From Tepidanaerobacteraceae bacterium (GTDB taxonomy: Bacteria; Bacillota; Thermosediminibacteria; Thermosediminibacterales; Tepidanaerobacteraceae): a stretch of 64,000 nt of DNA. The DNA lies in assembly GCA_029982615.1 (NCBI GenBank), contig JARRBK010000004.1:3822-67821 (forward strand), given 5' to 3'. Position 1 is the first letter of the stretch. The number at the start of each line of letters is the position of its first letter. Both the position numbers and the translations under genes were made by a program. Shown one piece after another: positions 24,453 through 62,043 of this stretch. The notes under the pieces are model-generated. The model did no database searches, was not told the DNA's origin, and was given only the letters and a program-made list of their open reading frames with translations.

Positions 24453-24700
24453 AAAAAACCTCGCCCCTAAGGGACGAGGTTTACTCGCGGTACCACCCTG
24501 GTTGAGCCGAAGCTCCACCTCATTTGGATAACGGTAAAACAACCGGCTGGGCTTACTGGAAAACACCGTTCAGCCTGCAGCTCAGGAGCGGCCCGAAGTC
24601 ATCTACCTGCCGGCTTTCACCTTCCCCGGCTCTCTTTTGAGGCGTTATGACTCCTTCTTCTCCGTCATGGCTTTTAAAATCCATTATTTTAAAATCTTAT
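24453..24700 (-). promoter_or_regulatory. T-box riboswitch leader (complete: Stem I, F-box, T-box sequence, terminator)
   Basis: On the minus strand: AGAGA bulge; distal hairpin GCCGG-GGAAGGUGAAAG-CCGGC; F-box CCGUUA; CCAGGGUGGUACCGCG (24501-24486); terminator AAACCUCGUCCC-UUA-GGGGCGAGGUUUUUU (24482-24453). Confidence 0.85.
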
Positions 24701-51649: not shown

Positions 51650-51772
51650 GAAAATGAACTACGAATAGATATTATTAATAATACAGTTGTCCATAAAAAT
51701 TTGCGACAACTAAAGACACAAATAAATACGGGTAAAAAAAGAATAATATACAAAATAAAGCATATAGAACAT

Positions 51773-51800
51773 AAAAGCAGCGGATAAAACCGCTGCTTTT
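51773..51800. terminator. Bidirectional terminator
   Basis: Stem AAAAGCAGCGG-ATAAAA-CCGCTGCTTTT lies between the convergent MBL and sortase genes. Confidence 0.7.
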
Positions 51801-51885
51801 AATACTCGGATATTTTTTATACTCTTTCTTGTCCTTTATAAAACTACTGCTTGTCCCATTTTGTTTTTTTATTTTTCAGCCCCTT

Positions 51886-52542
51886 TTATTTTGTGCTCTG
51901 TTCCACCAGCTTTCCCCTGACAATCAGCCTGAGAGGAGGCTTTTCGCTGTAGTCACATGTTATCAGGTTTATTAGCTTTTCTCTGCCCTGCGGCAGCAGC
52001 ACCCAGATGTCTTCCGGTTTTGCGATGATGCTTGCCTGTACTTCATAGATGAAATGTCCTTTATCTGTTAAAACTTCTATGATGTCACCTTTCTCAAGTT
52101 CATTCAGCCTATTGAAATGCCTTCCTCTGGTTCGGCTGCGGTGGCCGGCTATGCAGTAATTGCCGGGCTGCCCCGGACCTGCAGTACCCTCCAGGCTTGA
52201 TACTGAAAGGTTGAGATTCTGTTTGGTGGCCCCCTTTAATATGGGAAGGCGAAGGTTTATTTTTTTTATTATCAGGATACCTTCCATGTGTGCGGCAATG
52301 TATTTTTCTATGCTTTCTACCCTGTCGCCCGGTGTTGATGAAGACTCCTGACCGTCGAATTCGGTCGGGTTCAACGTTTCGCTTTGTCCCATATCTTCTG
52401 AACCATCCAGTTCGCTTAGACTTTCTTGCCAGGCCTGAAGGATTTTGTGCTGTTTGTAATCGTAATAACATTCTCTGAGCTTTGGATAGGATATTAAGGA
52501 TATACCAATGATTATAAGAAGGATTGGCGCGATTTTCTTCAT
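51886..52542 (-). CDS. Sortase-family transpeptidase (class not assigned)
   Basis: An N-terminal membrane anchor is present, with the catalytic His context YCIAGHRS, the TLxTC-type Cys motif LINLITCDY, and a C-terminal Arg (LRLIVRGKL). The RBS is GGAGG. Confidence 0.85.
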   Translation of the reverse strand: MKKIAPILLIIIGISLISYPKLRECYYDYKQHKILQAWQESLSELDGSEDMGQSETLNPTEFDGQESSSTPGDRVESIEKYIAAHMEGILIIKKINLRLPILKGATKQNLNLSVSSLEGTAGPGQPGNYCIAGHRSRTRGRHFNRLNELEKGDIIEVLTDKGHFIYEVQASIIAKPEDIWVLLPQGREKLINLITCDYSEKPPLRLIVRGKLVEQSTK

Positions 52543-52590
52543 ACATTGAGCCTCCAGTAAGAAAGGAAGCTGAGGAGATATCTTTCTCGG

Positions 52591-53412
52591 CTATAGCTTT
52601 TTGCTTCTTAGAAGCTTTATTCCTGCCAGGATGGCAAAGCCGCCTACTATATAGTACGGATACGGTAGAGACTCACCGGTCTTGGGCATTTCGAGCGCTC
52701 CGGCGGGCACCGGCTCCGGTTCGATTACCTTTTCGGAAGACGAAGGTTGCTGTTTTGGCTTTTCCGGCAGTGAAGGCTGGCCCTGTGGTATGGGTTCTTC
52801 TTCAACTATCTCAACAGGTGTTTCAGTAACTTTCGACCCATCTTTTTGGTCTCTTCTATTCCCGCTAGTGCTGCCTCCGCTGCTGCCGTCACCGGAGGTC
52901 TGGGCGGTGAATATCCACTTTATTTGGGCGCTCTTTCCCTGAAACTCATTGCCGGTTTCCGGTCCCGGAAGCTCGAGTTTTGCCACAAGTTCGCCGCTTG
53001 CACCGGGGGCAAAGGTGCCCAGACTTATGTTTTCTCCAAGGCCCGATTCACCGCTGGCGGGGCCGCTGTAAATCGTGTTTCCTTTATACTTTACTGTGAG
53101 CTGCAGCTGTTTTAAAAGATCCGGTTGTTCCTCTCTGTCCACCTGTTCAGCCCGTATGTATAATGTGAAGGGACCGCTATAGTTGTTCTGAATTTTAAGG
53201 GTGCTTTTCACAGTGTCGCCGGGGTTTAAGTTGTCGAGGTCAAAAAGCTTTGCCCCTTCGGGCACCAGCACCAGCCCCTGGGCGTTTCCGATCAATTCTA
53301 TATCTTTGGCCTGAGCCATGACTGATTTTTGGGCATAGGGCATAAAAAGGCCTGCGCCCAAAATGCAAAAAGCCAGCATTATATGTATCAATATTTTAAT
53401 TATCACTCTCAT
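52591..53412 (-). CDS. TasA/camelysin-family paralog with a C-terminal (M)PKTG cell-wall sorting signal
   Basis: Signal peptide MRVIIKILIHIMLAFCILGAG. Motifs NLNPGDTVKS and TGNEFQGKSAQI are shared with the adjacent TasA-like gene. The C-terminus is LEMPKTGE (MPKTG at 52689-52675), then a hydrophobic stretch, then RSKKL. The ATG follows AAGGAGGG. Confidence 0.75.
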   Translation of the reverse strand: MRVIIKILIHIMLAFCILGAGLFMPYAQKSVMAQAKDIELIGNAQGLVLVPEGAKLFDLDNLNPGDTVKSTLKIQNNYSGPFTLYIRAEQVDREEQPDLLKQLQLTVKYKGNTIYSGPASGESGLGENISLGTFAPGASGELVAKLELPGPETGNEFQGKSAQIKWIFTAQTSGDGSSGGSTSGNRRDQKDGSKVTETPVEIVEEEPIPQGQPSLPEKPKQQPSSSEKVIEPEPVPAGALEMPKTGESLPYPYYIVGGFAILAGIKLLRSKKL

Positions 53413-53469
53413 CTGCGCTACCCTCCTTTTTGGGGGGTGAATATTTTTGACGGCGGTTTTATCAGTTGA

Positions 53470-53492
53470 GGGCATGCGGCAACCGCATGCCC
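53470..53492 (-). other. Strong intra-operon hairpin between the two TasA-family genes
   Basis: Stem GGGCATGCGG-CAA-CCGCATGCCC (10 bp, GC-rich) has no U-tract on the minus-strand transcript. Confidence 0.5.
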
Positions 53493-53558
53493 TGCAAAGG
53501 TTATACCAATATCGCTTCGAAAATTATTGTATCGTAAAGTTATACTTTTTTTAAAGAA

Positions 53559-54128
53559 TTATTCTCCGGTGAATTCCTTAACGCCAGCGGGAAGGCTGGA
53601 TATGCCCCATGCATCCTTATAGGCTTCGTGAGATGCCTGCACGCCTTCAGCTTTGACGTTGATGCGCAGGGTTTTGCCCTGATAGTCGTTTCCCGTTTGA
53701 GCGCCGATGAGTTCCACTGCATCCAGCAGTAACGATGTTTCATCGTTTTGGTTGAGGATGTGCTTGTAGTAATACCAGCCGTTAGAATATACCCAGTCGT
53801 CATTATTTGCAAGGATAAGGTTTACATTGTCGACGGAAAGATTTGTAGGACTGCCGTTGGCATCAAGCCATTCCGGCGTCAGGCTCACCCTGACGTATGT
53901 TGCCTTTGAACCTTCGGAAATCACGCTTACATCCTTATTTGTGGTGTCGCCCGGATTCCAGTTGGTGATGTCTTCAAAGCCATGCTCGTTTACTTCGATT
54001 TTAACCGTGCCGGCGGTAAACGTATTTGCCACCGATTTTTCGCTGGTAAACCATGCCATGGTGCCTCCAACAATCAGAAGCGCCACAAGTAAGAACACCA
54101 AAGAACCGATTAATAAAGTCTTTTTCAT
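53559..54128 (-). CDS. TasA/camelysin-family fibre subunit with SipW-dependent-type signal peptide
   Basis: MKKTLLIGSLVFLLVALLIVGGTMAWFTSEKSVANTFTAGTVKIEV is the canonical SipW-type signal/N-terminus. Motifs NWNPGDTTNK and TGNDYQGKT are present. The RBS is AAGGGGGA. Confidence 0.85.
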   Translation of the reverse strand: MKKTLLIGSLVFLLVALLIVGGTMAWFTSEKSVANTFTAGTVKIEVNEHGFEDITNWNPGDTTNKDVSVISEGSKATYVRVSLTPEWLDANGSPTNLSVDNVNLILANNDDWVYSNGWYYYKHILNQNDETSLLLDAVELIGAQTGNDYQGKTLRINVKAEGVQASHEAYKDAWGISSLPAGVKEFTGE

Positions 54129-54214
54129 TTTAAAATTCCCCCTTAAATTTTTTGATTTTATTTTAAGTTCCTTTTGAACAGCCCCGGATGTCTTTCCGCA
54201 GCTTTTGCTGCCGT

Positions 54215-54775
54215 TTAATCATCAGTAGAGATTTTTTTATTTTTGCGCTCAATGGCGAGTGTTCTGGACAGTTCCATTAATATGAATATCACAAATGCCC
54301 CTAGCAGAATCATTATGCCATTTTTTGTTCTGGCGTAGGAAAAGGCGTAACCTACATAAGGTATTGAAAACACCACTTTGCCTATCAATCGGTTTGAGCG
54401 GACGGGCATCGGGTCTTCTACTTCATTGGCATCTCCTTTGGTCCGGAATAACAGTGTCTGGCTTTTTTCCACCTCAATTACCCGGTGGGTGGTTATGTTT
54501 CCTCCGTGATCATCACCCCGGAAGGTTATTATATCGCCAGGTGCGACGTCTCCAGGATCGATGGGGTCCACTATGATCAGGCTTCTGGTTTTCAGAGCCG
54601 GGCTCATGCTGCCGCTCATGACTATATACATCTTATAGCCAAAAACTGAGGGTTCCCGGCCGGTCAGCCTGCTCTGGACCAGGAAGAACGTCAATGTAAG
54701 CGCAGAGATTATCAGAATTATCAAGGCTGTTCTTATTATTATGTTGCAGACTGCTGTCAGATGTTTTTTTATCAT
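54215..54775 (-). CDS. sipW: Signal peptidase I, SipW (archaeal/ER-type) subfamily
   Basis: The catalytic Ser motif MSGSMSP and the His motif ITTHRV are present, along with N- and C-terminal TM segments. The gene is adjacent to a TasA-type substrate gene. Confidence 0.85.
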   Translation of the reverse strand: MIKKHLTAVCNIIIRTALIILIISALTLTFFLVQSRLTGREPSVFGYKMYIVMSGSMSPALKTRSLIIVDPIDPGDVAPGDIITFRGDDHGGNITTHRVIEVEKSQTLLFRTKGDANEVEDPMPVRSNRLIGKVVFSIPYVGYAFSYARTKNGIMILLGAFVIFILMELSRTLAIERKNKKISTDD

Positions 54776-54787
54776 GTTTTATCTCTC

Positions 54788-57289
54788 TCACCCATACGTA
54801 ATTTTATAAGGTCCTTTCCGGCTTTCGGGAAGAGCCCCGTCAGGCATCGCAAAAAGCGTTGCATATGAATCGCTGTTGCCGGCTGTGCCTGAATTATTTA
54901 ACACTAATACAAGGTCTATGTTAACTGTAAAATAATTATCTTTTTCATCATCATCTCTGAACCATCCGTAGTTGCTCCTTTTGTTTGTAACCGTTACGGT
55001 GACCGTAAGATTTTCCCTAGTTATGTTTACAACAGGCGAAGTTATGCTGACTAATTCATAGTCCATTGGCACCACTTCGCTGATTTTGTAAGTTCCCAAC
55101 CTGAGATTGCCGATTTGATAAGATTGATTTTCAATGGCGAATATATTCCATTTCTTGCCGTTCAGGCCGTCTATTTTGATTATGAATTCCTTGTCAGAGT
55201 CTTCGTTTGTCACGATTTTTTTGATTATTATCCTACCTTTTATAACCCTGACCAGAACCTTATCCGAAGCGGTGCACCCGTATTTGTCAGTGACCGTGAC
55301 GGTGTAGACAGCATCATCTTCGAGAGATACCTGAGGATTTACTTCACTCGATGACCATCCCGAATCTATATTGCATGACCAGGTGTAGTTGTATGGCGGA
55401 TATCCCCAGCTAACCTGGAGGTTGTCGCCTATGCCTATAACATCGCCTATGACGATTTCCCTGTCAGGACCGGCATTTACCGAAAGCGGCGGCTGAACAT
55501 ACACTGTCGGTACAGGAAAAGTTTTGCTCTTTCCGGATACGCCGTTGACGTCGGTGTAGCTCAGCGTGGCGCTCACATTGGTTGGCACATTGTCTCCGCC
55601 CTGGAATGTCTTTTTTGCCTTTATCTTGTAAGTCAGGGTGGCGCTGGTGCCGATGATTCCCGGTGCCCATGTGATGGTATGGGTGCTTTCATCATAGGAA
55701 ACCTGGGTGCTAGGGTTTGCTGCGATGCTGGCTGGCACAAGGTCGAAAACGTCTGTTATCACGTCGGTTACCACTGCATCAGTGGCGGATGTGCCCAGCT
55801 GTTCGGATATCTCGCTATAAATGCCGGAAAGGTCAGCAGCCGAGAAGGTTTCGTAATACCCGGCATTCTGCGCCCATTGCAGTGTTTCCCGAGCCATGGT
55901 AAGGCACTGGTTGGGCACCTGCCCGAGAAGGCCCACGGTGAAAACCTTGGCTACGTTCCAGCAGCTCTGTCCAGCCTCGTAAGCAGCAATGGTGTGAGCG
56001 TTGTGGGCGGTGGGTTCGCTGGGGCCATAAGGTCTGCCTATGCTGACGGTGGGCAACCCGTCAGTCAGCAGGATTATCGCTTTGGTTGCGTTGGCCCTTC
56101 CGCTAGATTCCATTAACTTCCTGGCCCTTATGAAACCCGCTTCGGTATTTGTTCCCCCGTCGGCGATGAGACCGTTGATAGCATTTTTTACTTGATTAAA
56201 ATCATAAGAAAAATCCCTATCAATCGATGTATCTGTATTTAAATTTCCTACCAGCTGCCAGTAACGCCATGACCATACTCCCTCATATGCAAAACTCACC
56301 ACTGCCACGCGGTTGTTCGGGTTTTGCAAGACCTGCTGAGCGAAATTTATGGCAGCCTGTTTTGCATAATATATGGATGACGGGTTGCCGTATGCCATGC
56401 TGCCAGACCTGTCGATTACAAGTATGACATCCAGTGGTTTTTGGGGCGGCGTGCCGGTGATGCTCAAGCTTACCTGGTATGTCCTGCAGCCTTCTGCGGC
56501 GCTGGCCTGTTTGTTCACCTGAATGGTGTCCGTGTAATTTGTGGCTGGTGATACTGCAAAAGTCTTTACAAGTGAAGTAGAGCGAAGAAGTGTTGTGTCG
56601 GATGAATTCAGGGATTTTGTCGATTCTACCGACGCGGCCTTTTTTAAATCTTTCTCAAAGTCTGGTGGAACGGGTATAACCTTGTCTGCTTTCACTTCTA
56701 TAAAACCGGGATTAGAAACCCTTCTGTTTACAGTCAAAGTCAATGAACTTTCCGCGCTCACAGTAGCATTTGCGCCTTTTCCTTCGCAAGATGCACTGAT
56801 GGTGAAGCTGTCTTTCGTATAGCCGTAAGGTATGTAGCATTTTCCCTTTATGGATTCTTCTTTTCCTGCATCAAGGCGGGATATTTTGGTTTCAATCCCT
56901 GTGTCTTTGCTGTATACCCACAGGCTGACTATGTCAGCATTGCCGGTATTTGTCAGGGTTACGGTAAACTCCGCCACATCTCCCAGCTCGTATTCCGCTT
57001 TGTCGGCGTTTATCCGAATATTTATTGAAGCATCCGATGCTTCGGGCAGCATCTCCTGTGGCGGCACTTCAGGTAATTCCAACGGCACTTGCTCTGCAAC
57101 GTCCTGCTCGGTGCTCGGCTCGGGATTTTTGGAATATACGGCTTCAAAAACCGTTTCCCCTTCTTCCGCCGTAGAACCTGCACATACTCCGGCTTCGTCG
57201 CCAAAGGCGCTGGTTTGTGTCAGGATGGGGCACAGGATGAGAATCAAGGCGAGCATTATGGCTGTGATTTTTCTTGGGGTGAGTTTCAC
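54788..57289 (-). CDS. Large secreted vWA-domain adhesin-like protein with PKD-like and SpaA/Cna-B-like C-terminal modules
   Basis: MIDAS motif DVILVIDRSGSM ... LLTDG. The signal peptide KLTPRKITAIMLALILILCPILTQTSAFG is present, and the C-terminal module has GTYKISEVVPMDYELV. The start is placed at the GTG at 57289, because the GTG at 57301 abuts the GGAGG with no spacer. No sorting signal is present. Confidence 0.8.
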   Translation of the reverse strand: MKLTPRKITAIMLALILILCPILTQTSAFGDEAGVCAGSTAEEGETVFEAVYSKNPEPSTEQDVAEQVPLELPEVPPQEMLPEASDASINIRINADKAEYELGDVAEFTVTLTNTGNADIVSLWVYSKDTGIETKISRLDAGKEESIKGKCYIPYGYTKDSFTISASCEGKGANATVSAESSLTLTVNRRVSNPGFIEVKADKVIPVPPDFEKDLKKAASVESTKSLNSSDTTLLRSTSLVKTFAVSPATNYTDTIQVNKQASAAEGCRTYQVSLSITGTPPQKPLDVILVIDRSGSMAYGNPSSIYYAKQAAINFAQQVLQNPNNRVAVVSFAYEGVWSWRYWQLVGNLNTDTSIDRDFSYDFNQVKNAINGLIADGGTNTEAGFIRARKLMESSGRANATKAIILLTDGLPTVSIGRPYGPSEPTAHNAHTIAAYEAGQSCWNVAKVFTVGLLGQVPNQCLTMARETLQWAQNAGYYETFSAADLSGIYSEISEQLGTSATDAVVTDVITDVFDLVPASIAANPSTQVSYDESTHTITWAPGIIGTSATLTYKIKAKKTFQGGDNVPTNVSATLSYTDVNGVSGKSKTFPVPTVYVQPPLSVNAGPDREIVIGDVIGIGDNLQVSWGYPPYNYTWSCNIDSGWSSSEVNPQVSLEDDAVYTVTVTDKYGCTASDKVLVRVIKGRIIIKKIVTNEDSDKEFIIKIDGLNGKKWNIFAIENQSYQIGNLRLGTYKISEVVPMDYELVSITSPVVNITRENLTVTVTVTNKRSNYGWFRDDDEKDNYFTVNIDLVLVLNNSGTAGNSDSYATLFAMPDGALPESRKGPYKITYG

Positions 57290-57584
57290 TATGGGTTTCA
57301 CCTCCTTTTACCGGTATTCGCTTGTAAATAATAGTTTAATTATCCCGCGACCTAAATTTTGCCAGCTCCTTTCCGCTTCTTTTGATAGCTTCTTCTATCA
57401 AATGCAAAAGTTCGAGAGTACTTCTGAACGCTAAAGACTGGTCTTCTTCTAGCCAATGTATATATCCCTGCATAGTGGCGTTTTCTGTGTACATTCCATC
57501 ACAGCAGCCTCGTGCATGCGATCCCCTCCTGCCATGATTTGTATTATATTTTCTTAAATTCTACCAGACGACGAATGCTGTTCG

Positions 57585-57634
57585 ATTTCACTTTGATTTC
57601 ATAAGCGTGATTTTTGAATTTCATTTGCATTTCA
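57585..57634. repeat. Four helically phased direct repeats ATTTCA (TGAAAT on the minus strand) upstream of the fibre operon
   Basis: ATTTCA at 57585, 57596, 57618 and 57629 (offsets 0, 11, 33, 44). A degenerate ATTTTT lies near the empty slot. Confidence 0.55.
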
Positions 57635-57692
57635 TATTAAATTTATTTGATTAAAATTAAATTAATAACAAAAACATGATTTTGGGAAAAAC

Positions 57693-57721
57693 AAAAAATC
57701 CGGCATTTAACCGGATTTTTT
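57693..57721. terminator. Bidirectional terminator (ends the 34-aa small gene)
   Basis: Stem AAAAAATCCGG-CATTTAA-CCGGATTTTTT. Confidence 0.7.
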
Positions 57722-57782
57722 AAAATAAAATTTTTATGTTATGTAATCTTATACCAATAATACTTGAATGTAAAACTTAAGC

Positions 57783-57887
57783 TTACCTCAATTCCAAATT
57801 CTTAAACATCCTCTTGTTTTTTTTCAGAATCGAAGTTCTGGCGGCCTTAATGTCGAAATCGCCGAAAGTAATAACTTCGATAGTCAT
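57783..57887 (-). CDS. Unannotated 34-aa small protein gene
   Basis: The ATG follows GGAGGAAAACC. The product is MTIEVITFGDFDIKAARTSILKKNKRMFKNLELR. The upstream promoter is TAGACA-17-TGaTATAAT, and a downstream terminator lies at 57721-57693. The ORF is below the 60-aa cutoff of the ORF track. Confidence 0.5.
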   Translation of the reverse strand: MTIEVITFGDFDIKAARTSILKKNKRMFKNLELR

Positions 57888-58080
57888 GGTTTTCCTCCAT
57901 ACGGGTTTTTGTTAAAAAATAATATTTTTGTTTATTATATCAACTCTGAGAGTATTTGTCTAGCAGAGTATTACACTTACTCATATACGACCGAGCACGT
58001 GGAAAACCTATATCTATTTGACAATGGCTTTTTAACCATATCCAGGGTTACCGTCATGCCTGCCGCTGGAAATTAACCCA

Positions 58081-58368
58081 TTATAACATCTCCTTGGTTA
58101 CGTTCTCCACCGTAAATCGGCCGTCGCTTTCCATAAAGTAGAGCGCACGGTCCAGCTGGCGGCCCGCATGTTCACCTGTGGTGGATACGCAGGCCATGCC
58201 GATTACCGCCCGCCTCAAATCATCCTGTCTGTCTACTTCTGCAACGGATATGTTGTAGCGGTTTTTCAGCCGCTCGATGATGCTTTTCACTATCTGCCTT
58301 TTATCTTTCAATGAAAACGTATCGCCCATGGATATTTCCACAACCATTGTGCCAACAACCATGTTCAT
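58081..58368 (-). CDS. DUF503 (YlxP-like) family protein
   Basis: MVVEISMGDTFSLKDKRQIVKSIIERLKNRYNISVAEVDRQDDLRRAVIGMACVS matches the DUF503 pattern. The RBS is AGGGGG. Confidence 0.75.
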   Translation of the reverse strand: MNMVVGTMVVEISMGDTFSLKDKRQIVKSIIERLKNRYNISVAEVDRQDDLRRAVIGMACVSTTGEHAGRQLDRALYFMESDGRFTVENVTKEML

Positions 58369-59804: not shown

Positions 59805-59994
59805 ACATATCCTCCTTTTGCTTACTATTATAACATAAAAGGTAAACAGATGCAGGGCAATCTTAAACTGGAAGTTGAATTTGCATAATAAAAGGAAAGC
59901 ATAACAAAATAAAGCAAATATATGAAAGCGGGGCGTAAATTAAAAAACTTGCGCTGCCGCAAATTTTTTATTTATATAATTAATATATTAACAA

Positions 59995-60023
59995 TTAACA
60001 TAATAACAATTTATATATATAAT
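59995..60023 (+). promoter_or_regulatory. Candidate promoter of the marR-tolC-hlyD-ABC2 operon
   Basis: TTAACA (59995-60000), a 17-nt spacer, then TATAAT (60018-60023), within an AT-rich divergent region. Confidence 0.4.
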
Positions 60024-60059
60024 ATTAACATATACATTAAATATTCGGAGGCGAGAGCA

Positions 60060-60575
60060 GTGGACAGGCTGAAAAGGATGAAAAAGATGGCTGAAAGCTA
60101 TAAGTGGGTGGAAGGCATTGCGAGCAGGGCTATTATTGAATTTAAAAAGACCCATGAAATGCTTGAGGAGGTATTCGAAAACCACTTTCAAGCGTACGAC
60201 ATATCCGATTCCAAATTCAATTTGCTGGTTATACTGTACAATTCCTCGGAAAAGGGGTTGATGCTGTCGGAGATAGGAGACAGAATGCTGGTGACCAGAG
60301 CCAACATAACGGGCCTTATAGACAGGCTGGAAAAGCAGGGTCTGGTGAAAAGAATCAGGGATGATATGGACAGGAGGAAAATACAAGCCGTGATTACGAA
60401 GAAAGGGATTTCTTTCACTGAAGAAGTAATGAAAAAATATAAGGAATGGTCGAACTCCATTATGAATATCTTAAACGATGAGGAGAAGACCCGCCTCATA
60501 AACATAATGTCCAAATTGCAGAAAGGGTTGGTTCAAATGGAGACGGAAAGGAGAATCCCGCATGTTACGGCTTAA
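60060..60575 (+). CDS. MarR-family transcriptional regulator
   Basis: The winged-helix region is LSEIGDRMLVTRANITGLIDRLEKQGLVKRIRDDMDRRK. The start is uncertain: GTG 60060 after GGAGGCGAG, or ATG 60078/60087. The AT-rich N-terminal extension in the ORF track is rejected. Confidence 0.8.
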   Translation: MDRLKRMKKMAESYKWVEGIASRAIIEFKKTHEMLEEVFENHFQAYDISDSKFNLLVILYNSSEKGLMLSEIGDRMLVTRANITGLIDRLEKQGLVKRIRDDMDRRKIQAVITKKGISFTEEVMKKYKEWSNSIMNILNDEEKTRLINIMSKLQKGLVQMETERRIPHVTA

Positions 60576-62043
60576 ACTGCCAATCTTTATAATAACTGCA
60601 GCTTTTTTCCTTTGCTTTGGGATTCCGGCTCATGCAGAAGAAACCGGTGTGCTGAAGCTCACCATAGAAGATGCAGTGAAAAAAGGCCTCGAAAACAGCA
60701 TTTCGTTAAAACAAGTGCAGAACCAGATGGATATCAGCGACCTTACGCTGGAGCGGGCCAAGTACCAGAGCAAAAAGTTAAAGGATGCGGATAAAAAATT
60801 GAGCCGCGGAAAATCCCAACTCCAGGAAGCGCAATCCACTGTGGAAAACCTGGAGGGAATTCTTGAAGGCAAAGCTTCAAACCAAGACATCACATTACCG
60901 AATGGACTTGTGCTTAAAGCGGGTCAAACCATTGATGATGTTAAAAAACTGTACAATTTAGATGAAAATACGATTGATACATTAAAAACTCAATTTGAGG
61001 CGCAAATCGATATGATACAGACGCAGATAAAAGCCGGTTCCACATCCCTTTCCACAGGCGAATCCAAACTGGACGCAGCACTTCAGGAAGCTGCGGGCGA
61101 GTTTTCGGACAAATTGAATATAGAGGGCCTAAAATCCCTAGACATAAAATCCACGCAAGACCTAATGACCACCATGGCCGAAATATCCGATGAGGTTACC
61201 AACGCATCATATGACATATATAAAAATCAGATAGCCCTTCTCATCCAGAAAAGCTACTACGATGTTTTGAAAGCCCAGAAAATGCTGGAGGTAAAACAAA
61301 AAGCCATGGACAGGGCGAAAAAACAATTCGATTTGGCGACGGAAAGCTACAGGACGGGAATGAAGGCAAAGGATGACATGCTACTGGCAGAGCTTTATTA
61401 TAAAAAAACCCAGATAGAATATCAGCAGGCCTTGGAAGATTTGGACAACGCCATGATTGAATTCAAGAAAAACATAAACGTACCCCAGGACACACAAATT
61501 GAGCTTACAGACGTGATGGCGGAAGAAGTGAAAGATGAAGACTTGGAGCAGGGGCTCAAGAGCGGTCTGGTGAACCGGCTGGAAATAAAAAAGGCTTTTG
61601 GACAGCTGGTGGTAAATGATTTGAGCTTTGAATCCATCAAAAAGACTTATCCAGAAAACACCTTCCAGTACAGGGAAGCAGAGCTTTTAAAAGAAAAGGC
61701 CAGGCTGGAATATGAGAATACAAAGCTGGCGGTGGAAAGTTCCATCCGGCAGTCATACGAAACCATGAAAAGGACCGGAGAAATGCTGAAACTCACCCAG
61801 GACATGGTGGGAAGGGCAAAAGAAGTGGTGGATATAGCCAGCTATAAATACAGCGAAGGTTTCGGCGAAGACAACAGCCTGCTCAAACAGTTGAACCTGG
61901 AATCCGCATCAGGCACCATATTGGAAGTGCTGGCAGCCCAGGAAAATCTTGCGGATGTGGAAGAGAAGGTGGTGGAAATCATGTACGGATATAACCTGGC
62001 GAGGATGAAATATTTTAATGATATAGGAAAATTCGTGTATTAA
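60562..62043 (+). CDS. TolC-family (outer membrane efflux protein-like) protein
   Basis: It has a signal peptide (MLRLKLPIFIITAAFFLCFGIPAHA) and the two-repeat coiled-coil OEP architecture (LTIEDAVKKGLENS..., YYDVLKAQKMLEV..., ...YNLARMKYFNDIG). The start overlaps the marR end. Confidence 0.75.
   Translation: MLRLKLPIFIITAAFFLCFGIPAHAEETGVLKLTIEDAVKKGLENSISLKQVQNQMDISDLTLERAKYQSKKLKDADKKLSRGKSQLQEAQSTVENLEGILEGKASNQDITLPNGLVLKAGQTIDDVKKLYNLDENTIDTLKTQFEAQIDMIQTQIKAGSTSLSTGESKLDAALQEAAGEFSDKLNIEGLKSLDIKSTQDLMTTMAEISDEVTNASYDIYKNQIALLIQKSYYDVLKAQKMLEVKQKAMDRAKKQFDLATESYRTGMKAKDDMLLAELYYKKTQIEYQQALEDLDNAMIEFKKNINVPQDTQIELTDVMAEEVKDEDLEQGLKSGLVNRLEIKKAFGQLVVNDLSFESIKKTYPENTFQYREAELLKEKARLEYENTKLAVESSIRQSYETMKRTGEMLKLTQDMVGRAKEVVDIASYKYSEGFGEDNSLLKQLNLESASGTILEVLAAQENLADVEEKVVEIMYGYNLARMKYFNDIGKFVY

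What the first reader, a model, noticed from the sequence alone, without database searches (positions are those of the whole stretch)
51886..57289. Hybrid SipW/TasA-type fibre operon with its own sortase and a TasA paralog carrying a cell-wall sorting signal
Five co-directional minus-strand genes are separated by gaps of 12, 86, 146 and 48 nt. (i) An ~830-aa secreted protein has a vWA/MIDAS motif (DVILVIDRSGSM...TDG), a PKD-like module and a SpaA/Cna-B-like C-terminal module. (ii) A SipW-type signal peptidase (SGSMSP, THRV). (iii) A 189-aa TasA/camelysin-family protein with the canonical SipW-type N-terminus (GGTMAWFTSEKSVANTFTAGTV). (iv) A second TasA-family paralog shares the NxNPGDT and TGN[DE][YF]QGK[ST] motifs with (iii). 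It ends in LEMPKTGE, about 20 hydrophobic residues and RSKKL, which is a sortase sorting signal with Met where Leu is usual. (v) A membrane-anchored sortase (AGHRS, LITCDY). The B. subtilis tapA-sipW-tasA paradigm has no sortase or LPXTG component, and sortase-built pili normally have no SipW/TasA component. This locus therefore reads as a fusion of the two assembly logics. The hypothesis is a TasA-like fibre rooted covalently in peptidoglycan through the sorting-signal paralog, with a vWA adhesin in the position tapA occupies in Bacillus.
Basis: partly seen in the sequence, partly recalled or inferred. Interest (0 to 1): 0.75.

Follow-up and report, generated by a model that had tools for sequence, protein, structure and literature searches.

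The report
Sortase-anchored TasA/BsaA-type fibre operon
This is a compact five-gene operon in a Tepidanaerobacteraceae genome that most likely builds a TasA-like surface fibre with an adhesin at the tip and a cell-wall-anchored base; the gene set is real, but the same kind of locus has already been described in Clostridium perfringens and other Clostridia.

Summary
Five co-directional minus-strand genes lie at the stated coordinates, flanked by terminator-like hairpins. They encode a vWA/GBS104-Ig adhesin, a SipW-type signal peptidase, a BsaA-family TasA-like subunit, a second TasA-like paralogue ending in MPKTG plus a membrane span plus RSKKL, and a sortase.

The paralogue really is TasA-like (Pfam just above cutoff; hhalign 97.4% to the BsaA family; best Foldseek hit is TasA). 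Its tail passes NCBI's LPXTG-anchor model.

In 69 related genome loci the paralogue almost always sits beside sipW and bsaA-like genes (41 of 42). A co-directional sortase follows in 13 of 61, so the link is recurrent but optional.

The "hybrid" is not new. The C. perfringens bsa locus (srtB, sipW, bsaA, LPXTG-bsaB, vWA-bsaC) has the same parts, and two recent preprints note LPXTG anchors and sortases beside TasA-superfamily genes.

Two added points:
- The mature anchor paralogue lacks the N-terminal donor strand.
- The vWA protein carries a conserved C-terminal copy of that strand (WFx7NxFxV). More distant vWA homologues carry LPXTG there instead.

This suggests a tip (strand donor only), shaft, base (acceptor only, sortase-anchored) fibre. 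That model is inferred, not shown.

Verdict: new member of a known kind, moderate interest.

The parts
57692..57722 (-). Terminator-like hairpin that closes the upstream unit (a 34-aa ORF at 57783-57887). It marks the 5' boundary of the operon. About 400 nt of untranslated leader follow before the first gene.
   Evidence: 13-pair stem followed by a T run; sequence read; no Rfam match.
54788..57289 (-). P1, an 833-aa secreted vWA adhesin. It has a Sec-type signal peptide, an acidic/Pro-rich linker, a DUF11/CARDB-like module (sub-threshold), a vWA/MIDAS domain, a GBS104-like tip-pilin Ig domain, a SpaA-like module (sub-threshold) and a C-terminal tail. It has no LPXTG.
   Evidence: Its only PDB sequence relatives are weak (E 4.7e-4): entries 3tw0/3tvy, named 'cell wall surface anchor family protein' and identified from my own knowledge as GBS104 fragments.
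56024..56431 (-). vWA/MIDAS domain of P1 (DVILVIDRSGSM ... LLTDG).
   Evidence: VWA_2 54.5 bits, VWA 45.3 bits; translation checked.
55502..55786 (-). GBS104-like Ig domain of P1, the type found in sortase-pilus tip adhesins.
   Evidence: PF21426, 55.4 bits, cutoff 26; translation checked.
54923..54964 (-). Donor-strand-like tail of P1, WFRDDDEKDNYFTV. It has the same pattern and spacing (WF-x7-N-x-F-T) as the mature N-terminus of P3.
54215..54775 (-). P2, a SipW-type (archaeal/ER-type) signal peptidase I of 186 aa, with SGSMSP (Ser) and THRV (His) motifs and N- and C-terminal membrane spans.
   Evidence: TIGR02228 112.9 bits, cutoff 51.85; Bacillus SipW equivalog 129.6 bits, below its cutoff of 190; motif positions.
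53559..54128 (-). P3, a 189-aa BsaA-family TasA-like subunit with a SipW-cognate signal peptide. It is the presumed shaft subunit.
   Evidence: AF2 model pLDDT 84.9, with residues 20-35 disordered. Best Foldseek hit is the TasA fibre 8aur, E 7.4e-6.
54003..54053 (-). Predicted donor strand of mature P3, W26-V42 (WFTSEKSVANTFTAGTV). It includes N35, which corresponds by number and context to the isopeptide Asn of C. perfringens BsaA.
   Evidence: N35 is 97% and K75 is 99% conserved across the family; numbering from PMC11580942; translation checked.
52591..53412 (-). P4, a 273-aa TasA-like paralogue. It has an AXA-type signal peptide, no donor strand, a TasA-like beta-sandwich (about residues 36-172), a Gly/Ser- then Pro/Glu-rich linker of about 70 aa, and a sorting signal. 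It is the presumed wall-anchored base subunit.
52594..52689 (-). Cell-wall sorting signal of P4: MPKTG, a 22-residue mainly hydrophobic stretch, then RSKKL.
   Evidence: TIGR01167 17.5 bits, cutoff 15.9; T245 and G246 are invariant in the family alignment; translation checked.
51886..52542 (-). P5, a 218-aa sortase with an N-terminal membrane anchor. It has AGH at 132-134 and LITC at 193-196; H134 and C196 are invoked as the catalytic residues and R209 (in LIVRG) is a candidate catalytic Arg. It has no class C lid (no DP[FWY]) and no C-terminal membrane span.
51772..51801 (-). Terminator-like hairpin (12-pair stem) 85 nt after the sortase stop codon. It marks the 3' boundary of the operon.

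Best explanation
The block is a bsa-type operon (the SipW/TasA superfamily) that builds a donor-strand-exchange fibre on the surface of a Gram-positive-type Clostridia cell.

Proposed mechanism:
1. SipW (P2) removes the special signal peptide of the BsaA-like subunit P3. This exposes an N-terminal strand, WFTSEKSVANTFTAGTV.
2. Each P3 inserts this strand into the beta-sandwich of the neighbouring subunit, as in TasA and BsaA. The conserved N35 and K75 may lock the joint with an isopeptide bond.
3. The paralogue P4 has the same fold but no donor strand, so it can only accept a strand. It ends the fibre on the cell side.
4. The adjacent sortase P5 cleaves P4's C-terminal MPKTG signal and links P4 to peptidoglycan. 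P5 has a class D/E-like build and is not a pilus polymerase.
5. The vWA/GBS104-Ig protein P1 has no TasA fold but carries a C-terminal copy of the donor strand. It would fill the open groove of the outermost P3 and act as the tip adhesin.

Shown here: gene content, family membership, folds, the sorting signal, the absence of a donor strand in P4, the presence of the donor-like tail in P1, and the synteny.

Inferred: who inserts into whom, the fibre polarity, the isopeptide lock and the wall linkage.
For: Family hits above curated cutoffs support P1, P2, P3 and P5.

P4 is homologous to P3:
- BLASTP E 1e-8.
- hhalign 97.4% probability, E 1.1e-11, over 157 columns.
- AF2 model pLDDT 78, with TasA 5of2 as the best PDB match and archaeal TasA-like pili also in the top hits.

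P4 lacks the donor strand:
- In the hhalign alignment, P4's signal-peptide end (AQA|KD) falls where P3 reads FTA|GT, so mature P4 starts after the donor-strand position.
- Only 1 of 139 distant P4-family representatives has a SipW-type GGTxAWF N-terminus.

Sorting signal:
- TIGR01167 scores above its cutoff.
- 63 of 66 complete homologues in genome loci, and 117 of 139 distant representatives, have a motif plus membrane span plus basic tail.

Synteny across 69 genome loci:
- SipW in 41 of 42 loci with enough upstream sequence.
- At least one BsaA-like gene upstream in 41 of 42.
- A co-directional sortase within 1.5 kb downstream in 13 of 61; any sortase within 6 kb in 18 of 61.
- All five closest relatives, L001-L005, have the sortase.

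P1 tail:
- A scoring matrix built from 93 P3-family N-termini picks the tail as the best window in the window's own P1 and, by my reading of the listed windows, in 13 of 19 vWA ORFs. Only 2 of 3374 unrelated ORFs score as high as window P1.
- The reverse matrix, built from 31 tails, picks the mature N-terminus in 98 of 120 P3-family proteins. Window P3 scores 13.4, above all 645 unrelated ORFs of at least 150 aa.
- The only local hhalign match between the two profiles is this same segment, E 9.4e-4.
- 30 of 58 P1 homologues match the motif within their last 110 residues and none of those has LPXTG. About 10 more distant vWA+GBS104-Ig homologues end in LPXTG plus a membrane span and lack the tail.

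Literature:
- BsaA residues 28-38 form the donor strand, and N35-K74 form an isopeptide bond (PMC11580942).
- TapA donates its N-terminus to TasA (PMC10151520).
- AF3 predicts that LPXTG anchors co-assemble with TasA-superfamily subunits (10.64898/2026.01.04.697558).
Against: - There is no experimental data, and the source is a metagenome-assembled genome.
- P4's Pfam score is marginal (24.3 against a cutoff of 22.5).
- The P1/P3 strand similarity spans only 14-17 residues, and hhalign gives it only 22% probability.
- In the window's P1 the tail is followed by 44 more residues, so it is not at the extreme C-terminus.
- P4 has Phe where P3 has K75, so the shaft-base joint could not be isopeptide-locked.
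- The catalytic acid for a BsaA-type triad could not be assigned in P3.
- A sortase is absent from the 6-10 kb flanks of about 70% of related loci.
- In C. perfringens strain 13, deleting srtB changed neither BsaA polymers nor pellicles, and BsaA oligomers were membrane-associated rather than wall-linked. That strain has lost the LPXTG-bearing bsaB (PMC7395162; PMC11580942).
- No multimer structure prediction could be run here.
Confidence: 0.6

Rival explanations
1. The fibre genes (SipW and P3) and the sortase pair (P4 and P5) work side by side but are not physically joined. P4 would be a free-standing wall-anchored TasA-fold surface protein, for example a nucleator, a docking site for matrix, or a cell-cell adhesin. 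P3 fibres would be released into the matrix as in B. subtilis and C. perfringens strain 13.
For: - BsaA polymers are mostly extracellular and membrane-associated, not wall-linked, and they are independent of srtB in C. perfringens strain 13.
- P4 lacks the conserved Lys of P3.
- P4 has an extra strand pair (GLVLVP...KLFDL) between its first strand and the NLNPGD motif. This insertion might fill its own groove.
Against: - P4-family genes are practically never found without sipW and bsaA-like genes immediately upstream (41 of 42).
- P4 keeps the whole TasA core and specifically lacks only the donor strand. That is the pattern expected of a chain-terminating acceptor.
- AF3 models in the literature place an LPXTG anchor protein in a donor-strand complex with the fibre subunit.
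Confidence: 0.22
2. The locus builds a classical sortase-polymerised pilus. The sortase would covalently join P4 subunits and the vWA tip adhesin, as in the GBS104/RrgA systems. The TasA-like protein and SipW would be a separate matrix system.
For: - P1 carries the GBS104-like tip-pilin Ig domain plus a vWA domain.
- More distant P1 homologues do end in LPXTG.
- The class C sortase model gives the highest class score, 89 bits.
Against: - P1 has no sorting signal.
- The sortase scores far below the class C cutoff (89 against 160). It has no DP[FWY] lid and no C-terminal membrane span.
- Its closest solved relative is the class D C. perfringens SrtD.
- P4 has a TasA fold, not a CnaB/SpaA pilin fold.
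- There is only one sortase and one sorting-signal protein in the 64-kb window.
Confidence: 0.05
3. The sortase is next to the fibre genes by accident, or as a recent insertion, and P4 is anchored by a housekeeping sortase encoded elsewhere.
For: - About 70% of related loci have sorting-signal P4 homologues but no sortase within 6 kb. These must rely on a distant sortase.
Against: - 13 of 61 loci have a co-directional sortase within 1.5 kb downstream. That is orders of magnitude above what a few sortase genes per genome would give by chance.
- All five closest relatives keep the sortase.
- In the window, the sortase starts 48 nt after P4 and shares its terminator.
- Met-first signals are enriched among sortase-linked loci: 5 of 8 against 8 of 53, Fisher p = 0.008, not corrected for relatedness.
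Confidence: 0.08

Closest known systems
Clostridium perfringens bsa locus: srtB next to sipW-bsaA-bsaB-bsaC (Obana 2020, PMC7395162; Kivimaki et al. preprint, PMC11580942)
   Same: - It has the same five kinds of parts: a SipW peptidase, a BsaA-family subunit with a SipW-type signal, a second TasA-like paralogue that carries LPXTG in most strains, a vWA protein, and an adjacent sortase.
- P3 passes NCBI's BsaA-family model.
- P3 has V33, N35 and F37 at the same numbers as the BsaA donor strand.
   Different: - Gene order differs: vWA comes first here and last in C. perfringens.
- The sortase is co-directional and inside the operon here; in C. perfringens it is oriented in the opposite direction to sipW.
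- No bsaRS two-component genes lie nearby.
- The sorting signal is MPKTG.
- Direct sequence comparison with BsaB and BsaC was not possible, because their sequences were not retrievable with these tools.
Bacillus subtilis tapA-sipW-tasA (Böhning 2022, PMC9674648; Roske 2023, PMC10151520)
   Same: - A SipW-processed TasA-fold subunit polymerises by N-terminal donor-strand exchange.
- An accessory protein (TapA) supplies only a donor strand.
- P3's best structural match is the TasA fibre 8aur.
   Different: - B. subtilis has no sortase, no sorting-signal paralogue and no vWA adhesin.
- TapA's donor segment is N-terminal; P1's is C-terminal.
- TasA has Ala and Leu where P3 has N35 and K75 (alignment).
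- P2 falls below the Bacillus SipW equivalog cutoff (129.6 against 190).
TasA-superfamily loci with tip, minor and anchor subunits (AbpX preprint 10.64898/2026.01.04.697558, which also cites archaeal Tafi pili)
   Same: - The concept is the same: a donor-strand fibre with a dedicated signal peptidase, a predicted tip protein, and a surface anchor that in bacteria is often an LPXTG protein with a sortase.
- AF3 predicts the anchor joins the fibre by donor-strand complementation.
   Different: - The subfamily differs: this locus is BsaA/TasA-type with a short two-span SipW, not the ten-span peptidase described there.
- A vWA/GBS104-Ig tip with a C-terminal donor-like tail is not mentioned in the text I read.
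Sortase-assembled pili with vWA tip adhesins (GBS104 of S. agalactiae, RrgA of S. pneumoniae)
   Same: - P1 shares the vWA plus GBS104-like Ig architecture.
- More distant P1 homologues end in LPXTG like these adhesins.
- Both have an overall tip-shaft-base layout with a wall-anchored base.
   Different: - The shaft here has a TasA fold joined by strand exchange, not CnaB pilins joined by a class C sortase.
- P1 has a donor-like tail in place of LPXTG.
- The sortase lacks class C features.

Membership tests
BsaA/TasA family (Pfam Peptidase_M73; NCBIfam TIGR04090) - P3 | Profile scores above curated cutoffs | tested here: met
   PF12389 47.6 bits (cutoff 22.5); TIGR04090 80.8 bits (cutoff 60).
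BsaA/TasA family - P3 | SipW-cognate signal peptide, and a sipW gene adjacent | tested here: met
   TIGR04088 36.8 bits (cutoff 19); sipW lies 86 nt upstream.
BsaA/TasA family - P3 | TasA-like beta-sandwich fold with a free N-terminal strand | tested here: met
   AF2 pLDDT 84.9, with residues 20-35 below 50; best Foldseek hit 8aur, E 7.4e-6, probability 1.0.
BsaA/TasA family - P3 | Polymerisation by donor-strand exchange | not testable with these tools
   No multimer prediction or experiment was available.
BsaA subtype with intermolecular isopeptide lock (N35-E56-K74 in C. perfringens BsaA) | Conserved Asn in the donor strand, plus Lys and a catalytic acid in the acceptor | tested here: inconclusive
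   N35 is 97% and K75 is 99% conserved in the P3 family. B. subtilis TasA has Ala and Leu at these positions. No acidic residue could be matched to E56 without the BsaA sequence or model coordinates.
TasA superfamily - P4 | Sequence, profile and fold homology to TasA/BsaA | tested here: met
   PF12389 24.3 bits (cutoff 22.5); BLASTP to P3 E 1e-8; hhalign 97.4%; best Foldseek hit is TasA 5of2, E 3.4e-4.
TasA superfamily - P4 | SipW-type signal peptide and N-terminal donor strand | tested here: not met
   P4 has an AXA-type signal. Its mature N-terminus aligns after the P3 donor strand. Only 1 of 139 family representatives has GGTxAWF.
Sortase substrates (cell-wall sorting signal) | LPXTG-type pentapeptide, hydrophobic span and basic tail at the C-terminus | tested here: met
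   The tail is MPKTG, 22 mainly hydrophobic residues, then RSKKL. TIGR01167 scores 17.5 bits (cutoff 15.9). Pfam Gram_pos_anchor gives no hit. Met-first motifs make up 41 of 117 signals in the family.
Sortase substrates | Cleavage after Thr and amide linkage to peptidoglycan | not testable with these tools
   This needs wall fractionation and mass spectrometry.
Sortase (Pfam PF04203) - P5 | Sortase domain with the catalytic His and Cys motifs (and a candidate Arg) | tested here: met
   Pfam 103 bits and TIGR01076 73 bits, both above cutoff. AGH at 132-134 and LITC at 193-196 match the conserved His and Cys motifs; R209 (in LIVRG) is assigned by position only.
Class C (pilus-polymerising) sortase - P5 | Class model above cutoff, a DP[FWY] lid and a C-terminal membrane anchor | tested here: not met
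   NF033745 89 bits (cutoff 160). There is no DP[FWY], and the C-terminus ...VRGKLVEQSTK has no membrane span.
Class D or class E sortase - P5 | Class model above cutoff | tested here: not met
   Class E 81.9 bits (cutoff 160); SrtD 73.9 bits (cutoff 140); class D 69.7 bits (cutoff 165). The closest solved structure is C. perfringens SrtD 4d70 at 61 bits. The class stays unassigned.
SipW-type signal peptidase - P2 | Archaeal/ER-type SPase I model above cutoff; Ser and His motifs | tested here: met
   TIGR02228 112.9 bits (cutoff 51.85); SGSMSP at residue 54 and THRV at residue 96. The Bacillus SipW equivalog model is below its cutoff (129.6 against 190).
C. perfringens-type bsa locus | SipW, BsaA, an LPXTG TasA-like paralogue, a vWA protein and a neighbouring sortase | tested here: met
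   All five are present. The comparison is with the published description, not with the C. perfringens sequences.
C. perfringens-type bsa locus | bsaR/bsaS two-component system in the operon | tested here: not met
   The flanking genes are an MBL-fold hydrolase, DUF503, a MATE transporter, MarR and an OEP.
Sortase-assembled pilus (GBS104/RrgA type) | Tip, shaft and base pilins that all carry LPXTG, plus a class C sortase | tested here: not met
   P1 and P3 lack sorting signals, and the sortase is not class C. Only the tip-adhesin domain set is shared.

The most novel reading that the evidence does not exclude
A complete, polar donor-strand-exchange pilus in a Gram-positive-type bacterium, in which sortase only anchors and never polymerises.
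- Tip: a vWA/GBS104-type adhesin that has exchanged the LPXTG of classical pilus tip adhesins for a C-terminal donor strand. The strand carries the Asn that could lock covalently to the shaft Lys.
- Shaft: the BsaA-like subunit.
- Base: an acceptor-only TasA paralogue whose MPKTG-type signal is read by a dedicated, so far unclassified sortase.

If true, this would give C. perfringens BsaC, whose role is stated to be unknown, a concrete function. It would also define MPxTG as a specialised sorting signal.
Probability: 0.4. Interest if true: 0.7.

Novelty: new member of a known kind. Interest (0 to 1): 0.5.

Why it matters
If the model is right, this compact five-gene operon is a clean minimal system for asking how TasA-type biofilm fibres attach to cells and how they gain adhesive tips. 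The literature I read poses these questions and leaves them open: the role of BsaC is called unknown, and the LPXTG-BsaB/SrtB link is untested.

The model also suggests that one adhesin module can be mounted on two unrelated fibre types simply by swapping its C-terminal attachment signal.

As a genome-scan hit, however, the locus is one more example of an arrangement that is widespread in Clostridia. The anchor-subunit family has 172 clusters at E<=1e-30 and 1686 at E<=1e-10 among 1.84 billion representatives.

Tried and rejected
- **Riboswitch or leader RNA upstream of the operon.** There is no Rfam hit at gathering threshold anywhere near the operon, and only chance-level hits at E<=1 in 57250-58100.
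- **Sigma-70-like promoter in the 400-nt leader.** None was found between 57302 and 57690.
- **Assigning the sortase to a class.** No NCBIfam class model reaches its cutoff. PDB neighbours mix classes D, A, C and E. A real phylogeny was not possible without reference sequences.
- **Is the closest solved sortase, CpSrtD, the bsa-linked srtB?** CpSrtD is CPE_RS01475, described as in the same operon as its own LPQTGS substrate. From its locus tag I judged it to be a different gene from srtB; this was not checked directly.
- **Retrieving C. perfringens BsaA, BsaB and BsaC.** I wanted them to align the isopeptide triad and to look for the tail motif. They were not among the listed hits of any of the three homologue searches.
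- **The P1 tail as a signal-peptidase site.** Rejected, because the residues before WF are not AXA-like and no membrane span is nearby.
- **A TasA-like acceptor domain inside P1.** No Peptidase_M73 hit was found, and hhalign against the C-terminal 122 residues gave only the 17-column strand match.
- **The longer ATG start at 53475 for P4.** Rejected, because it has no ribosome-binding site and homologues start at the hydrophobic N-terminus.
- **Other tail-bearing proteins in related loci.** Among 217 large co-directional neighbours, only vWA-class ORFs carry the tail.

Full report
**1. What is in the sequence**

The ORF list shows five co-directional minus-strand ORFs:
- P1, 54788-57301
- P2, 54215-54775
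- P3, 53559-54128
- P4, 52591-53475
- P5, 51886-52542

An independent gene call on a 7.2-kb Logan contig carrying the same DNA gives products of 833, 186, 189, 273 and 218 aa. Ribosome-binding sites favour the GTG at 57289 for P1 and the ATG at 53412 for P4. The gaps are then 12, 86, 146 and 48 nt.

Terminator-like hairpins sit about 400 nt upstream of P1 (57722-57692) and 85 nt downstream of P5 (51801-51772), both on the minus strand. The five genes therefore look like one transcription unit. The closest database entries name the source as a Tepidanaerobacteraceae MAG.

**2. What the five products are**

Pfam and NCBIfam give the following.
- P1 has a vWA domain (54.5 and 45.3 bits) and a GBS104-like tip-pilin Ig domain (55.4 bits).
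- P2 is an archaeal/ER-type signal peptidase I. TIGR02228 scores 112.9 bits (cutoff 51.85). It is close to, but below, the Bacillus SipW equivalog cutoff.
- P3 is a BsaA-family, SipW-dependent matrix protein. TIGR04090 scores 80.8 bits (cutoff 60), Peptidase_M73 47.6 bits, and the SipW-type signal 36.8 bits.
- P4 just passes Peptidase_M73 (24.3 bits, cutoff 22.5).
- P5 is a sortase (103 bits).

P1 has no sorting signal.

**3. Is P4 really a TasA paralogue with a sorting signal?**

Yes, on four lines of evidence.
- BLASTP of P3 against P4 gives E 1e-8, with the shared NxNPGDT and TGN[DE][YF]QGK motifs.
- A profile of 34 P4 homologues aligns to a profile of 46 P3 homologues with 97.4% probability and E 1.1e-11 over 157 columns.
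- An AF2 model of P4 (pLDDT 78, with core blocks mostly above 85) has B. subtilis TasA (5of2) as its best PDB match. The TasA-like archaeal pili 7ueg and 7pnb are among the top eight.
- P3's own model (pLDDT 84.9) best matches the TasA fibre 8aur at E 7.4e-6.

P4's C-terminus is MPKTG, then 22 mainly hydrophobic residues, then RSKKL. It scores 17.5 bits on NCBI's LPXTG-anchor model (cutoff 15.9). With Leu in place of Met it scores 21.3 bits. Pfam's Gram_pos_anchor model does not hit it.

Met at the first position is not a one-off.
- Among the 52 close homologues, MPKTG is the commonest form.
- Among 139 further distant representatives, 117 have a full tripartite signal. Its first residue is Leu in 50, Met in 41 and Ile in 15.

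I found no paper that discusses MPxTG signals.

**4. Is the sortase adjacency conserved?**

A scan of one genome per species found 70 loci encoding P4 relatives. They come mainly from Tepidanaerobacteraceae, Syntrophomonadaceae, Tissierellia, Peptostreptococcaceae and other Clostridia. I called ORFs in these loci and searched them with the five window proteins and with a sortase HMM.

| Feature | Count |
|---|---|
| SipW gene, among loci with at least 4 kb upstream | 41 of 42 |
| At least one BsaA-like gene upstream | 41 of 42 |
| Two or more BsaA-like genes upstream | 34 of 42 |
| Complete P4 homologues with a sorting-signal-like tail | 63 of 66 |
| Co-directional sortase within 1.5 kb downstream (loci with at least 1.5 kb downstream) | 13 of 61 |
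| Any sortase within 6 kb | 18 of 61 |

All five closest relatives (L001-L005) have the downstream sortase.

The sortase link is therefore recurrent and far above chance, but facultative. The link between P4 and SipW/BsaA is essentially obligatory.

Met-first signals are enriched among sortase-linked loci (5 of 8 against 8 of 53, Fisher p = 0.008). This is not corrected for relatedness.

**5. What kind of sortase?**

No class model reaches its cutoff: class C 89 bits, class E 82, SrtD 74, class D 70. The closest solved structure is C. perfringens SrtD (4d70, class D).

P5 has an N-terminal membrane anchor. AGH (132-134) and LITC (193-196) match the conserved His and Cys motifs, and R209 in LIVRG is a candidate catalytic Arg. 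It has no DP[FWY] lid and no C-terminal membrane span. By build it is an anchoring-type sortase, not a pilus polymerase.

**6. New points that bear on mechanism**

(a) Mature P4 lacks the donor strand.
- In the profile alignment, the end of P4's ordinary AXA-type signal peptide (AQA|KD) coincides with P3's FTA|GT.
- So P4 begins where the P3 core begins.
- Only 1 of 139 P4-family representatives has a SipW-type GGTxAWF N-terminus.

(b) P1 and its orthologues carry a conserved motif about three to six residues after the SpaA-like module: GWF[RYH]D[DE]xE.xNxF[TK]V. In the window it reads WFRDDDEKDNYFTV, at 54923-54964.
- This has the same pattern and spacing as the mature N-terminus of P3, W26-F27-x7-N35-x-F37-T.
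- A scoring matrix from 93 distinct P3-family N-termini picks this tail as the best window in window P1 and, by my reading of the listed windows, in 13 of 19 vWA ORFs from related loci. Only 2 of 3374 unrelated ORFs reach window P1's score.
- The reverse matrix, from 31 tails, picks the mature N-terminus in 98 of 120 P3-family proteins. Window P3 (13.4) beats all 645 unrelated ORFs of at least 150 aa.
- hhalign between the two profiles returns only this segment, with E 9.4e-4. Probability is only 22%, because the match is 17 columns long.
- Among 217 large co-directional neighbours of P4 genes, the motif occurs in 14 vWA-class ORFs and 2 dubious others.

(c) Among 58 P1 homologues, 30 match the motif within their last 110 residues and none of those has LPXTG. 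About ten more distant vWA+GBS104-Ig homologues end in a canonical LPXTG signal and lack the tail. The adhesin module seems to have been fitted with one attachment device or the other.

(d) P3's N35 and K75 are 97% and 99% conserved.
- In C. perfringens BsaA, residues 28-38 are the donor strand, V33 and F37 pack into the neighbouring subunit, and N35 forms an isopeptide bond with K74 (PMC11580942). P3 has V33, N35 and F37 at the same numbers.
- B. subtilis TasA, which has no such bond, has Ala and Leu at these positions.
- The Asn is invariant in the P1 tails.
- P4 has Phe at the K75 position.
- I could not assign the catalytic acid.

**7. Most likely mechanism**

SipW trims P3 to expose WF... 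as its first residues. P3 subunits chain by donor-strand exchange. P4 accepts a strand but cannot donate one, so it caps the end towards which the strands point. Sortase P5 fixes P4 to peptidoglycan through Thr245, with the roughly 70-residue Gly/Ser- then Pro/Glu-rich linker spanning the wall. P1 donates but cannot accept, so it caps the opposite, distal end and presents its vWA/MIDAS adhesin. In this scheme every groove is filled and every strand is used.

The parts list and the presence or absence of strands are shown by the sequence. The pairings, polarity, covalent lock and wall linkage are inferred. TapA of B. subtilis is a precedent for a donor-only accessory protein (PMC10151520).

**8. 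Comparison with what is known**

The arrangement is not new.
- In C. perfringens, srtB lies next to sipW-bsaA-bsaB-bsaC. BsaC is a 70-kDa vWA protein.
- In ATCC 13124 and most strains, one bsaB gene carries LPXTG. The authors raise the possibility that SrtB links it to peptidoglycan (PMC7395162; PMC11580942).
- The same preprint states that BsaA/TasA family genes often sit in putative operons with genes for LPxTG, SpaA-domain, signal peptidase and sortase proteins.
- A 2026 preprint on AbpX reports LPXTG anchors and sortases in bacterial TasA-superfamily loci, predicted tip proteins in archaeal loci, and AF3 models in which the LPXTG anchor joins the fibre by donor-strand complementation.

Three things I did not find described: the C-terminal donor-like tail of the vWA protein (BsaC's role is called unknown), its mutual exclusivity with LPXTG, and the prevalence of Met-first sorting signals.

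**9. Verdict**

The anchoring hypothesis is reasonable and gains support. The claim of an unprecedented hybrid does not hold.

I rate the locus a new member of a known kind with moderate interest. The tip-adhesin tail is the part most worth following up.

Noticed in passing
window 54923-54964 (-): The vWA protein carries a conserved C-terminal motif, WFRDDDEKDNYFTV. It mirrors the mature N-terminal donor strand of the BsaA-like subunit (WF-x7-N-x-F-T), including the Asn that forms the isopeptide bond in C. perfringens BsaA.
   Followed up: yes
proteins P0173-P0230 (homologues of window 54788-57289): Close vWA+GBS104-Ig homologues end in the donor-like tail and never in LPXTG. About ten more distant homologues end in a canonical LPXTG plus membrane span and lack the tail. 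This suggests a swap of the C-terminal attachment module.
   Followed up: yes
window 54791-54922 (-), and the C-termini of P0175-P0206: P1 orthologues with an extension after the tail share a second short motif, roughly [ED]A[VI]LP[DEK], 35-45 residues downstream. The window has DGALPES. Its function is unknown; it could be a processing or latch site.
   Followed up: no
window 52675-52689 (-), and P0231-P0369: Met-first sorting motifs (MPKTG, MPRTG, MPQTG and others) make up 41 of 117 signals in this anchor-subunit family. A full-text search found no paper that discusses MPxTG signals.
   Followed up: partly
window 57290-57887 (-): A 34-aa ORF (57783-57887) is followed by a strong terminator-like hairpin (57692-57722). 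An AT-rich leader of about 400 nt then precedes P1, with no sigma-70-like promoter match and no Rfam match.
   Followed up: partly
window 59922-62043 (+): A MarR-family regulator is followed, with a 14-nt overlap, by a TolC-like outer-membrane efflux protein (Pfam OEP, 70.5 bits). I did not expect an outer-membrane efflux protein in a lineage I assume to be monoderm (not checked) and that also uses a sortase.
   Followed up: partly
window 24467-24677 (-): A T-box leader (Rfam RF00230, 108.8 bits, full length). It is the only Rfam hit at gathering threshold in the window.
   Followed up: no
loci L047, L049, L052, L053, L055, L059: The SipW homologues in these related loci are 690-760 aa long. 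They may be the multi-span or fused signal peptidases described for AbpX-type loci.
   Followed up: no
loci L026, L047, L058: P4-like genes occur on contigs binned as Atribacteria, Desulfovibrio and Aenigmatarchaeota MAGs. This could reflect mis-binning or horizontal transfer.
   Followed up: no
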